Of a stretch of 64,000 nt of DNA, positions 23,231-31,195 are shown piece after piece. The first letter of the stretch is position 1. The number at the start of each line of letters is the position of its first letter. The translations under genes and the position numbers were made by a program. The notes beneath the pieces are model-generated. The model saw nothing but the letters and a program-made list of their open reading frames with translations. It was not told the DNA's origin and searched no databases. The stretch lies in assembly GCF_055900595.2 (NCBI RefSeq), contig NZ_CM148325.1. One strand, given 5' to 3'.

Positions 23231-24054
23231 AATCAGCATTCACGTATCAGGAAGAGTTAAGGGTACAAGGGGTACTCGATGGCGGTCTATATTTCACGAC
23301 TAACGCCATTTCAAGGAAGAAGTGTGGTGGGTGGTTTCGAATGAGGGCTGGTGTTTTGGTACGTGGCACGCCACTGCAATGTATTTATCCATCAGTACTC
23401 ATTCAAAAGTACCTGGAAAAAATGCCCGCTATGCCAAGCGGGCAAATTGCTTACATGTGGAATTAAGTAATTAACGATAAAGCCAGAGTATTATCATTTA
23501 TTATACCCATTCATTTAATCAGGTTAATTACTCAAATCACTGAACTATTCTCTGTTCGCTCACTTATGCTGAGTGAGTACCACGACCAATGTATGTAGAA
23601 CAATGCCGTAGAGTAAGGATGAAATGTCTCTGCCACGCCTTAAACATCTACTACTGACTAGAACCGCCGTCGCATGCAGAAGAGTCTTGTGAGCGTTACA
23701 GGAGTCTGGCTTTGCTCATTAATCAACGCTATTTAGATATAAATTTCTAATACTCGAAAAACGATTTTCACAAATAAATTATAACGGGTGGTTTTTATCA
23801 TACAGCGAAATAACCTTTTGTTTATTAAATTTAACATTCCTGTGCTAAATTAATTAAAAGTACCATGTGTAGCATATGAAGCTGTTAATGCCAGCAATTG
23901 TCTCAAATGAGCGATTTTTTATAGTGACAAACAATAATAACATTAAAAATAGTCATGTAGACATTAACTGAGGAAAAGACAATGTTAGTTAGTAATTAAC
24001 ACTAGCACATTTATAAATAGTGGAAATTGTAATGAAAGAAAATCTTCTAAATCC

Positions 24055-25425
24055 ATGGAGTTACTAGCTTATAGTATTATAAAATTAATTTGTAAAGAAG
24101 CTGCCTCAGGGACGTATAACGGTGCTCTTGAAATTTTACAAAAAATGATGTCTGAATGTAAATATCATGAAGGCAATGCTTTTGTCATTATGGGAGCCGG
24201 AGAACAATTAAAACGTATTAAATATGATGCTAATGAAAATAAATTAAAAGTAAACAACGTACACTTTGATAATAATCAAGAGTTAGTTGCTGATGGTGAG
24301 CCTGACGTAGTATTTTTAAAAAAAACGGTGTGGGAAGACCTTCTCGTTAAACTAAAGCTGGAGAACAAAGAAAATGCGGTTTCTGAAATTAACCTGTCAT
24401 CTAATAAAAATAATGTTGATCAGTTTATTGAATGCGCTAAGAGAAATGAACAGACCCTATTCGACAATATAAGAAAAAGTGATTTTCATGTTGCTTCACT
24501 TCAGCCAGGTAGAACGCGTAGTGTTATTTCAGAAACGCCGCCAAATGACTGTATGGAATCACCTAATTTATATGAAAACCACACAGATAAGGTTTCAACT
24601 GTAACTAAAAATTCTCAGCAAGTTAAAGGTCACTATGGAGATAAGTTGAAAGAAATGCAGTTGTTCCTCAACCAGATGAGCAATGCACTTCAACAGGATT
24701 CATCTTTGTTAGAGTCAAAGGAACACACCATAGATATTCAAGAAAAAACGAATAAGTTTGTGCAGCATTTTCAGCGGGTATTATTTGATAAAAATGGAAG
24801 GTCATCAGAGTTTCTACTTAATTTTTATGAGTGTTGCTATAAGTTTTTACCAAGAGCGCAGCCTCAAGATAAAATCGATAGCTATAATTCAGCACTGCAA
24901 GCTTTTTCCATCTTTTGTTCATCTACGTTGACACATAATAATGTAGGGTTTAATTTCAAATTATTTCCAGAAGTCAAGCTGTCTGGAGGAGATCTTGAAA
25001 CGGTATTCAAATACAAAAATGGCAATTTTGTCTGGGAGATAGCCAGAATTAAAATTACTCTCCCAAAAGAAGAGGGTGGTTTATATAATTTAGGTGGATT
25101 GGACTTTAAGGGGTGCTTCTTTTCTGGACAGAACTTCAGTAACTATGATATTAAATATGTGAACTGGGGGACGTCATTGTTTGATGTTGATACTCCGTGT
25201 ATTTTTAATACGCCTGCTAACAATGAGAGTTATGAAAAATCATTAAAGCCTGTGAGCGAAAACGGTTTAAATGGAGTCTTATCTGATCGTAATAAAAAAA
25301 TAAAAATGATCACGGGCGTGGCACCATTCGATGGTATTTCATCTATGGATGATGACTTTGATGATAGTTCCTCTGAGGATGAGCCCGTTGAGAATAGTCC
25401 TGTTGTGACTAGGCCCCTTGTATAA
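24055..25425 (+). CDS. Hypothetical protein, 456 aa, AT-rich (YpjB/YpjC-region protein)
   Basis: Long ORF in an AT-rich island; no signal peptide or TM segment; acidic Ser/Asp/Glu-rich C-terminal tail; no family recognised. Confidence 0.6.
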   Translation: MELLAYSIIKLICKEAASGTYNGALEILQKMMSECKYHEGNAFVIMGAGEQLKRIKYDANENKLKVNNVHFDNNQELVADGEPDVVFLKKTVWEDLLVKLKLENKENAVSEINLSSNKNNVDQFIECAKRNEQTLFDNIRKSDFHVASLQPGRTRSVISETPPNDCMESPNLYENHTDKVSTVTKNSQQVKGHYGDKLKEMQLFLNQMSNALQQDSSLLESKEHTIDIQEKTNKFVQHFQRVLFDKNGRSSEFLLNFYECCYKFLPRAQPQDKIDSYNSALQAFSIFCSSTLTHNNVGFNFKLFPEVKLSGGDLETVFKYKNGNFVWEIARIKITLPKEEGGLYNLGGLDFKGCFFSGQNFSNYDIKYVNWGTSLFDVDTPCIFNTPANNESYEKSLKPVSENGLNGVLSDRNKKIKMITGVAPFDGISSMDDDFDDSSSEDEPVENSPVVTRPLV

Positions 25426-31035: not shown

Positions 31036-31195
31036 CCATCAACGAAAAAGCCCACATCTGTGGGCTTTCATATCACCAAGAGCCGCGGCTCCTTTGCGTA
31101 TCCTTTTATGTCTCCTCACCGTCTGGTCGGTGTCTTGCTGAGACTTCTAACTTCCTGTTTTTGTTGGTGTTGTCCTTGCACCGTCCAATCATGAT

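What the first reader, a model, noticed from the sequence alone, without database searches (positions are those of the whole stretch)
23231..31195. About 8 kb accessory island between tRNA-Ile(CAU) and tmRNA: autotransporter + unknown 456-aa protein + dead recombinase
Two classic integration targets (ileY and ssrA) bracket a block that differs in character from the flanking core genes: an AT-rich noncoding stretch, an AT-rich 456-aa ORF with no recognisable family, a decayed Pin-like serine recombinase fragment and a 1557-aa AIDA-type autotransporter. A recombinase remnant beside surface-protein genes suggests a degraded mobile or formerly invertible element. No integrase, toxin-antitoxin or defence gene is visible in it.
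Basis: partly seen in the sequence, partly recalled or inferred. Interest (0 to 1): 0.55.

Follow-up and report, generated by a model that had tools for sequence, protein, structure and literature searches.

The report
Decayed mobile-element scar beside tmRNA gene
This is the already-annotated E. coli ileY–ypjCB–pinH'–ypjA/ehaD stretch next to the tmRNA gene: leftovers of several old phage and island insertions plus one intact adhesin gene, present in about half of E. coli genomes, so it is ordinary.

Summary
The coordinates and gene calls are correct. tRNA-Ile(CAU) ileY lies at 23155-23230 and tmRNA at 31196-31557. Between them are an AT-rich leader, a 456-aa ORF, a Gin/Pin-like fragment and a 1557-aa autotransporter. 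Every part is a known, named E. coli feature.

- **456-aa ORF:** it is YpjCB (DUF5507+DUF5508), an Escherichia-restricted orphan. Here an 11-bp deletion disables its normal start.
- **Autotransporter:** it is an intact YpjA/EhaD, a biofilm adhesin.
- **Presence:** of 5426 complete E. coli genomes, 3026 carry ypjCB and 2438 carry near-full ypjA. Losses are by IS-mediated deletion, plus a short allele seen in Nissle 1917 (1102 genomes).

New detail lies in the 400 bp between ypjCB and ypjA, which hold four mobile-element fossils:
- a Fels-2-like phage arm that normally abuts ssrA;
- a CP4-57-type distal att copy;
- an IS3-family fragment;
- a P2-type tail-fibre invertase fragment.

I read this as stacked integrations at ssrA followed by deletions.

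There is no evidence that ileY was an integration target or that anything here inverts. The low-GC zone starts at 20207, left of the finding, and includes an amylase-like gene. E. albertii shares that gene and ileY at the same position.

Verdict: already known, low interest.

The parts
20343..22595 (-). Amylase-like gene (K-12 ygaQ equivalent), 750 aa, intact here. It lies outside the finding but belongs to the same low-GC variable block.
   Evidence: 38% GC with 26.6 ATA codons per 1000. Only weak GH13 and Alpha-amylase_C matches. Present at >=80% coverage in 3367 of 5426 genomes. The E. albertii ortholog is 60% identical at the same position.
23155..23230 (+). ileY, tRNA-Ile2 with anticodon CAU.
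   Evidence: ARAGORN and Rfam hits. Identical to the RefSeq tRNA-Ile of strain AF39 and 74/76 identical to K-12 ileY. Present at the same place in E. albertii.
23231..23552 (.). ileY-downstream segment shared with E. albertii. It is not part of the species-specific interval.
   Evidence: Window 23081-23552 aligns to E. albertii at 74.6% identity; homology then stops until 31191.
23553..23982 (.). AT-rich non-coding leader upstream of ypjCB.
   Evidence: About 36% GC. No ORF with a family match. Conserved together with ypjCB in 3026 genomes.
23983..25425 (+). ypjCB (DUF5507+DUF5508), a 5'-frameshifted allele. The open part is 24055-25425 (456 aa).
   Evidence: NF050179 scores 912 bits, covering profile positions 29-465 only. 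Pfam match. An 11-bp deletion follows codon 5 relative to AF39 and K-12. The nearest relative, AST85, has it annotated as a pseudogene.
25544..25607 (-). Fossil of the ssrA-proximal arm of a Fels-2/P2-like prophage, including the hairpin at 25570-25597.
   Evidence: 90.6% identical to Fels-2 nt 20-83, which directly follow its annotated att core. 93.8% identical to the sequence abutting the ssrA 3' end in a P2-like prophage of E. coli 13P477T. Terminator-like hairpin.
25608..25682 (.). Fossil CP4-57-type distal att copy (decayed ssrA 3'-end core) plus island-end sequence.
   Evidence: The AF39 allele reads TTGGTGGGCTGGCGGTGTCTGAATTGGT, 27/28 identical to the K-12 CP4-57 distal junction. Local alignment score is 59, against a shuffle maximum of 29. 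It shares the one-base deletion that K-12's distal copy has relative to the ssrA 3' end; that copy yields ssrA deltaT357 on excision (PMC10107115). The window copy is more decayed.
25706..25800 (.). Internal fragment of an IS3-family element.
   Evidence: 81% identical over 97 aligned positions (95 window bases) to the interior of IS3 copies. Matches many IS3 copies per genome.
25784..25945 (+). pinH', an internal fragment of a phage-type DNA invertase (Gin residues about 38-91).
   Evidence: 76-82% DNA identity to invertases of vB_EcoM-606R2, a P2 prophage of O157:H43, Fels-2 and pro483.
25982..31045 (+). ypjA cassette: a 380-bp upstream leader plus ypjA/ehaD (CDS 26362-31035, 1557 aa).
   Evidence: Both cassette ends recur at the ymgJ-ycgI remnant next to minE, at 89% (5' end) and 95% (3' end) identity, with the interior deleted there. 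89% aa identity to K-12 YpjA over the full length. Domain hits.
31045..31195 (.). 150-bp ssrA-downstream segment with a hairpin at 31046-31069.
   Evidence: Shared with Nissle 1917, K-12 and AST85 but not with E. albertii. Newer islands insert between it and ssrA.
31196..31557 (-). ssrA (tmRNA), unoccupied, with a wild-type 3' end.

Best explanation
The interval is the chromosomal flank of the tmRNA (ssrA) attachment site in E. coli. It is a mosaic left by successive integrations and later deletions, not a working island.

**Shown**
- It holds a disabled orphan gene (ypjCB).
- It holds a 400-bp graveyard of four mobile-element fragments.
- It holds one intact gene cassette, ypjA/ehaD.

**Inferred history**
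- A Fels-2/P2-like prophage first occupied ssrA, so its arm abutted the ssrA 3' end.
- A CP4-57-type island then integrated at the same core. This pushed the phage arm away and left a displaced att copy next to it.
- IS3-family activity and deletions then removed both integrases and nearly all cargo.
- ypjA may have been cargo of the second element. Alternatively it is a 5-kb duplicate of the copy whose remnant sits next to minE.

**What still works**
- ileY supplies a second tRNA for the rare AUA codon.
- YpjA is a type Va autotransporter. It is exported by Sec, its C-terminal barrel inserts in the outer membrane, and its repeat-rich passenger is displayed on the surface. Published work links YpjA/EhaD to adhesion and biofilm formation.

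Presence or absence among strains reflects deletion, not mobility.
For: **Identity of the locus**
- Synteny and RefSeq annotation in AF39, K-12 W3110 and AST85.
- Family hits.

**Fossils**
- Fels-2-like arm ending exactly at the att-core boundary.
- Followed by a CP4-57-type distal att copy, carrying the one-base deletion of K-12's distal copy, which yields ssrA deltaT357 on excision.
- IS3-family fragment.
- Phage-type invertase fragment.
- Both phage fossils have the orientation expected for a prophage at the minus-strand ssrA.
- Fels-2 and SopEPhi are reported to integrate into ssrA (PMC3448106).

**ssrA is the active site**
- Integrases abut ssrA in SE11 and L1_E925, and CP4-57 (K-12) and a two-recombinase island (AST85) lie between ssrA and the 150-bp segment, leaving ypjA plus that segment on the far side.

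**Loss by deletion**
- IS3 or IS1 sits at the truncation points in SE11, L1_E925 and F070.
- IS-mediated loss of ileY in strains W and B is published (PMC3032704).

**No sign of mobility**
- One chromosomal place per genome and none on plasmids for ypjCB.
- No att repeats in the window.

**YpjA function**
- Reviews citing Roux 2005 and an EHEC study.
Against: - The arm/att fossil lies 5.6 kb from ssrA. The ypjA cassette and the 150-bp segment lie between them. Simple accretion explains this only if both belonged to the second element, which is not shown.
- The 150 bp shows no similarity to the integrase-proximal arms of two other ssrA islands.
- The invertase fragment lies to the right of the phage arm. 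That is the wrong order for a single prophage, so a second phage or a rearrangement is needed.
- Polarity is unresolved. The short allele seen in B2 strain Nissle 1917 lacks everything and has a 333-bp filler of unknown origin.
- Only one outgroup genome (E. albertii) was examined.
Confidence: 0.75

Rival explanations
1. A discrete genomic island integrated at the ileY tRNA gene and later lost its integrase.
For: - A tRNA gene sits at the left edge.
- The sequence just downstream is AT-rich.
- The block varies among strains.
Against: - The ileY 3' end has no repeat anywhere in the window, even with 3 mismatches allowed.
- E. albertii shares ileY and the next 320 bp but has different content beyond that.
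- ileY is itself deleted together with the block in many strains.
- The low-GC zone continues to the left of ileY.
- Every integrase seen at this locus abuts ssrA or lies in an ssrA-side insertion.
Confidence: 0.05
2. The Pin-like gene once ran an invertible switch that phase-varied ypjA or ypjCB expression.
For: - A DNA-invertase fragment lies between two surface-related or unknown genes.
Against: - No inverted repeats bracket the spacer or a promoter. The best pairs are 14-31 nt at 72-93% complementarity, scattered across the region.
- 3002 genomes match the 936-bp spacer as one collinear piece on one strand.
- At DNA level the fragment is closest to phage invertases, including those of P2-family phages; in Fels-2 the invertase sits beside the tail-fibre genes.
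- The ypjA upstream leader starts at 25982. It recurs at the minE locus without any invertase.
Confidence: 0.03
3. The block is ancestral E. coli chromosome rather than acquired DNA, and its patchy distribution reflects only repeated loss.
For: - The amylase-like gene and ileY sit at the same position in E. albertii.
- ypjA has core-like GC, 49.9%.
- Losses are visibly IS-mediated.
- The block is always at one site.
Against: - ypjCB, the fossils and ypjA are absent from the one E. albertii genome examined.
- YpjCB has a single full-length 50%-identity representative among 1.84 billion proteins.
- The 35-41% GC of 23231-26361 and the att fossils point to imported DNA.
- This rival largely overlaps the best explanation for the period after acquisition.
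Confidence: 0.15

Closest known systems
E. coli K-12 locus ileY - ypjC/ypjB - pinH' - ypjA, distal to prophage CP4-57
   Same: Same genes in the same order and orientation. Overall DNA identity is about 93%, and YpjA is 89% identical over its full length.
   Different: - The window has no CP4-57, so ypjA lies 160 bp from ssrA.
- ypjCB is broken by a 5' frameshift rather than by K-12's internal stop.
- The amylase-like gene is intact here.
- YpjA carries one extra 36-aa repeat.
YpjA/EhaD and the AIDA-I/Ag43 group of type Va autotransporter adhesins
   Same: Signal sequence, strand-loop-strand repeats, proline-rich linker and C-terminal 12-strand barrel domain hits. Published roles in adhesion and biofilm.
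   Different: It scores below the equivalog cutoffs for Ag43 (352 vs 1200) and AIDA-I (277 vs 1200). It is therefore a separate ortholog group, not Ag43 or AIDA-I itself.
Fels-2 / SopEPhi-type P2-like prophages integrated in ssrA
   Same: A 64-bp arm with hairpin that normally abuts the ssrA 3' end, and an invertase fragment, both in the expected orientation.
   Different: Only about 64 bp plus about 160 bp survive. There are no structural, integrase or regulatory genes. The two pieces are in the wrong order for one prophage.
CP4-57-type (P4-integrase) islands at ssrA
   Same: A distal att copy with the same one-base deletion, and the first ~75 nt of island-end sequence.
   Different: No integrase, no yfjZ/ypjF-type toxin-antitoxin pair and no other island gene remains.

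Membership tests
tRNA/tmRNA-integrated genomic island or prophage (functional integrative element) | Integrase gene next to the target gene | tested here: not met
   No integrase ORF or family hit in 23231-31195. The only recombinase is a fragment of about 54 residues.
tRNA/tmRNA-integrated genomic island or prophage (functional integrative element) | Direct repeats of the target 3' end at both borders | tested here: not met
   No second copy of the ssrA or ileY 3' end with up to 3 mismatches. Only a decayed internal fossil at 25608-25628.
tRNA/tmRNA-integrated genomic island or prophage (functional integrative element) | Atypical composition and strain-variable presence | tested here: met
   35-41% GC for 23231-26361, against 50-51% in the flanks. 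Present in 45-56% of 5426 genomes.
YpjA/EhaD autotransporter adhesin (type Va) | C-terminal autotransporter beta-barrel domain | tested here: met
   TIGR01414 at 327 bits, full profile length, at the C-terminus.
YpjA/EhaD autotransporter adhesin (type Va) | Repeat-rich passenger and orthology to YpjA | tested here: met
   13 strand-loop-strand repeats plus Ag43/AIDA partial hits. 89% identity to K-12 YpjA end to end, and syntenic. RefSeq names the 99.9%-identical gene ypjA.
YpjA/EhaD autotransporter adhesin (type Va) | Surface display and adhesion/biofilm phenotype | not testable with these tools
   Known only from the literature on K-12 and EHEC homologs.
YpjCB family (NF050179; DUF5507+DUF5508) | Score above the curated cutoff | tested here: met
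   912 bits against a cutoff of 650. Both Pfam DUFs matched.
YpjCB family (NF050179; DUF5507+DUF5508) | Complete reading frame from the family start codon | tested here: not met
   An 11-bp deletion after codon 5 leads to a stop. Profile positions 1-28 are missing.
Serine DNA invertase (Pin/Gin/Hin/Cin) | N-terminal catalytic serine region | tested here: not met
   The match starts at Gin residue 38. Upstream frames are unrecognisable and contain stops.
Serine DNA invertase (Pin/Gin/Hin/Cin) | C-terminal helix-turn-helix DNA-binding domain | tested here: not met
   Similarity ends at about residue 91. An in-frame stop falls at the residue 80/81 equivalent.
Invertible phase-variation switch | Inverted repeats flanking a promoter segment, with both orientations present in populations | tested here: not met
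   No convincing flanking inverted repeats. The spacer is collinear on one strand in 3002 genomes.
tRNA-Ile2 (ileX/ileY) | CAU anticodon and near-identity to K-12 ileY | tested here: met
   Anticodon CAT. 74/76 identical to K-12 ileY and identical to a RefSeq tRNA-Ile.
tRNA-Ile2 (ileX/ileY) | Lysidine modification of C34 by TilS | not testable with these tools
   Inferred from established knowledge of ileX/ileY.

The most novel reading that the evidence does not exclude
YpjCB may have been a lysogenic-conversion gene carried at the att-proximal end of the ancient Fels-2-like prophage. It ends 118 bp before the fossil phage arm, in the position and orientation of a gene near the att-proximal (ogr) end of a P2-like prophage.

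If so, it would be a new-fold, Escherichia-only protein with a role in biofilm or host interaction. Its N-terminus is rich in serine and asparagine, as secretion signals of type III effectors often are.

Nothing excludes this. Nothing beyond position, low GC, orphan status and a reported K-12 ypjC biofilm phenotype (PMC3646849) supports it.
Probability: 0.12. Interest if true: 0.4.

Novelty: already known. Interest (0 to 1): 0.18.

Why it matters
It matters little beyond housekeeping.

- **Annotation:** the locus, its genes and its strain-to-strain variability are already in RefSeq annotation and the literature.
- **Modest added value:** a 400-bp stretch preserves a readable record of two successive occupants of the tmRNA attachment site, a P2-like phage and then a CP4-type island. 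This illustrates how integration hot spots accumulate scars and stranded cargo such as an adhesin gene.
- **Warning for island callers:** a tRNA gene next to AT-rich DNA is not evidence that the tRNA was the integration target.
- **Open question:** YpjCB remains a true orphan that might repay experimental study in a strain with an intact allele.

Tried and rejected
- **AlphaFold2 of full-length YpjCB** with a 14-sequence alignment gave mean pLDDT 35 and pTM 0.26. That is unusable, so no fold search was run.
- **YpjCB profile against PDB sequences:** no hit at E <= 10.
- **PADLOC on YpjCB, the amylase-like protein and YpjA:** nothing relevant.
- **tblastn of YpjCB against 50,697 phage records:** no match. 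The full-length PHROG hit (phrog_30093) therefore has no counterpart among sequenced phage genomes and cannot show phage carriage.
- **Genome-contig scan with YpjCB:** it returned only a 2.8-kb 'Planococcaceae' MAG contig. That contig is K-12-like E. coli contamination, so it gave no taxonomic breadth.
- **Search of 1.84 billion representatives:** one full-length cluster plus fragments.
- **Repeats of the ileY and ssrA 3' ends:** none.
- **Rfam at a permissive threshold over 22596-26400:** only the tRNA.
- **The 150 bp downstream of ssrA** against the integrase-proximal arms of two ssrA islands and against E. albertii: no similarity above shuffles.
- **The 333-bp filler of the Nissle-type allele** against everything fetched: no match.
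- **Promoter scan:** not above shuffle expectation.
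Full report
**What is there.** ARAGORN and Rfam place a tRNA with anticodon CAT at 23155-23230 (+) and the tmRNA gene at 31196-31557 (-). Between them are:
- an 824-bp stretch at 36% GC;
- a 456-aa ORF (24055-25425, 35% GC);
- a short serine-recombinase fragment;
- a long autotransporter ORF whose RefSeq-equivalent start at 26362 gives 1557 aa.

No integrase, toxin-antitoxin or defence gene was found.

**Identity of the locus.** A 14-kb query around the finding matches 5425 of 5426 complete E. 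coli genomes in part. Annotated relatives show the order glaH, amylase-like gene, tRNA-Ile, ypjCB, recombinase pseudogene, ypjA, ssrA, smpB.

This is the K-12 ileY-ypjC/ypjB-pinH'-ypjA region. In K-12, prophage CP4-57 lies between ypjA and ssrA. The window has no such insertion.
- The tRNA is identical to a RefSeq tRNA-Ile and 74/76 identical to K-12 ileY.
- The 456-aa product scores 912 bits against NCBIfam YpjCB (cutoff 650) and matches Pfam DUF5507 plus DUF5508. It does have a family, though one of unknown function.
- The autotransporter has a full TIGR01414 barrel, 13 strand-loop-strand repeats and partial Ag43/AIDA-I matches. It is 89% identical end to end to K-12 YpjA, with one extra 36-aa repeat.
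- Reviews credit YpjA/EhaD with adhesion and biofilm formation.

**The 456-aa ORF is a damaged allele.** Aligned with strains AF39 and K-12, the window and its closest relative AST85 lack 11 bp just after the family's start codon at 23983. That frame then stops, and the long ORF restarts at Met29. This matches the profile hit beginning at position 29.

K-12 carries a different lesion, an internal stop. AST85 carries this one plus another, and its gene is annotated as a pseudogene. The gene is evidently decaying in several lineages.

YpjCB is a true orphan:
- Among 1.84 billion 50%-identity representatives there is one full-length cluster plus fragments.
- The 120 best hits listed of 426 are 76-96% identical, and every organism name given by a source is Escherichia or Shigella.
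- There is no PDB relative, and no match in 50,697 phage records.
- AlphaFold2 gave pLDDT 35, so no structural inference is possible.

**Composition and true boundaries.** GC is 51% to the left of 20206 and 50% to the right of 31045. Within the block it is:

| Segment | GC |
|---|---|
| 20207-23154 | 36.7% |
| 23231-24054 | 36.4% |
| ypjCB | 35.2% |
| ypjCB-ypjA spacer | 41% |
| ypjA | 49.9% |

. The compositional anomaly therefore begins left of ileY and includes the 750-aa amylase-like gene. It ends before ypjA.

In Nissle 1917, homology to the window breaks at 20206 and resumes at 31045. An unrelated 333 bp lies in between. 1102 genomes carry that short allele.

One E. albertii genome has the amylase-like gene (60% aa identity), ileY and the next 320 bp in the same place. 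It then has unrelated genes (L31/L36 paralogs) up to ssrA, and homology resumes at 31191.

The amylase-ileY segment is older than E. coli, so its absence from the short allele is a secondary loss.

**Distribution.** Counts are of 5426 complete genomes at >=80% coverage:

| Segment | Genomes |
|---|---|
| Amylase-like gene | 3367 |
| ileY-downstream plus ypjCB | 3026 |
| ypjCB-ypjA spacer | 3002 |
| ypjA | 2438 |

.
- ypjCB occurs at one chromosomal place per genome and never on a plasmid.
- In SE11, L1_E925 and F070 the amylase gene is truncated at an IS3 or IS1, and everything through ypjA is gone.
- Separate IS-mediated losses of ileY in strains W and B are published.

The variation is by deletion, not by movement.

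**A graveyard of mobile-element fragments.** The 400 bp between ypjCB and ypjA hold four fossils.
1. **Phage arm, 25544-25607.** It is 90.6% identical to Fels-2 nt 20-83, the sequence that directly follows the Fels-2 att core and contains a hairpin. It is 93.8% identical to the sequence abutting the ssrA 3' end in a P2-like prophage of E. coli 13P477T. The match ends exactly where the core begins. Fels-2 and SopEPhi are reported to integrate in ssrA.
2. **Distal att copy, immediately after the arm.** The AF39 allele reads TTGGTGGGCTGGCGGTGTCTGAATTGGT. That is 27/28 identical to the junction at the far end of CP4-57 in K-12, and similarity continues for about 75 nt. The local score is 59, against a shuffle maximum of 29. 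It shares the one-base deletion that K-12's distal copy has relative to the ssrA 3' end; that copy yields ssrA deltaT357 when CP4-57 excises. The window copy is more decayed.
3. **IS3-family fragment, 25706-25800.** It is 81% identical to the interior of IS3.
4. **Invertase fragment, 25784-25945.** It encodes the equivalent of Gin residues about 38-91. There is an in-frame stop, no catalytic serine region and no HTH. At DNA level it is 76-82% identical to phage invertases, including those of P2-family phages (vB_EcoM-606R2, a P2 prophage of O157:H43, Fels-2, pro483).

**The ypjA cassette.** Window 25982-26332 (the ypjA leader) and 30691-31045 (the last 345 nt plus 10 nt) recur next to minE in nearly all E. 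coli. There they are 89% and 95% identical and are fused to each other. This is the ymgJ-ycgI remnant.

ypjA therefore sits in a 5.06-kb unit with sharp ends. Its left end abuts the invertase fossil. Its right end coincides with the point where homology to the Nissle-type allele resumes.

**Most likely history (inferred).**
- A Fels-2-like prophage occupied ssrA.
- A CP4-57-type island then integrated at the same core, displacing the phage arm together with a distal att copy.
- IS activity and deletions later stripped both elements.

ypjCB ends 118 bp before the phage arm and could have been phage cargo. ypjA could have been cargo of the second element, or a duplicate of the minE-linked copy.

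Newer elements still insert between the 150-bp segment and ssrA: CP4-57 in K-12 and a two-recombinase island in AST85. This leaves the whole block on the chromosomal side.

Weak points:
- The ypjA cassette and the 150 bp lie between the fossil junction and ssrA.
- The 150 bp resembles no island arm I could test.
- The invertase fragment is on the wrong side of the arm for a single prophage.

**What the evidence does not support.**
- Nothing marks ileY as an integration site.
- Nothing suggests an invertible switch. There are no flanking inverted repeats, the spacer is collinear in 3002 genomes, and the ypjA leader exists elsewhere without an invertase.

**Verdict.** The locus and all its genes are already known and annotated. 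The new detail, a readable two-layer att fossil and the cassette boundaries, refines the history without revealing a new kind of system.

Noticed in passing
window 25982-26332 and 30691-31045; L012 4001-4703: The ypjA leader and its last 345 nt recur, fused together, next to minE (the ymgJ-ycgI remnant) in about 5300 of 5426 genomes. Identity is 89% and 95%. This is an internally deleted paralog of ypjA with the same outer boundaries.
   Followed up: partly
L008 (DEQI01000374.1, 'Planococcaceae bacterium UBA3370' MAG): This 2.8-kb MAG contig carries the 3' part of ileY, ypjC/ypjB with the K-12 internal stop, and the pinH region. It is almost certainly E. coli K-12 contamination of the MAG.
   Followed up: partly
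window 23155-23230: This ileY allele (shared with AF39) differs from K-12 at two anticodon-stem positions. That gives an A28-C42 mismatch and turns G27-U43 into G-C. The E. albertii copy has a fully paired stem.
   Followed up: no
L009 (NZ_CP019274.1, 'plasmid p13P477T-1', 15 kb): A record labelled as a plasmid carries a full ssrA gene next to P2-like tail genes and ogr. It looks like a chromosomal prophage/ssrA junction assembled as a circle.
   Followed up: no
window 31196-31219; L004 12835-20675: The window's ssrA site is unoccupied and has the wild-type 3' end (no one-base deletion). Its 99.9%-identical relative AST85 has an island with two tyrosine recombinases inserted there.
   Followed up: partly
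window 20343-22595: The amylase-like gene is an intact 750-aa ORF here, but a pseudogene in K-12, AST85, F070 and SE11. It has only weak GH13 similarity. It has 26.6 ATA codons per 1000, next to a tRNA that reads ATA. Outside E. coli I found relatives only in E. albertii (60%) and one metagenome protein (35%).
   Followed up: partly
L011 7828-8793 (E. albertii CP117650): In E. albertii the ileY-ssrA interval holds ykgR-, L31- and L36-paralog genes instead of ypjCB and ypjA.
   Followed up: no
L003 2708-3041 (Nissle 1917): The short allele found in 1102 genomes has a 333-bp filler between the glaH promoter region and the ssrA-downstream segment. It has no similarity to the window, E. albertii, Fels-2 or the other loci fetched.
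   Followed up: partly
window 27106-27213: YpjA here has one extra 36-aa passenger repeat relative to K-12. Its first 240 residues are much more divergent than the rest, and GC rises from 46% to 53% along the gene.
   Followed up: no
window 23423-23444: A strong terminator-like hairpin on the minus strand lies 200 bp downstream of ileY. It falls inside the segment conserved with E. albertii, and there is no minus-strand gene for it to terminate.
   Followed up: no
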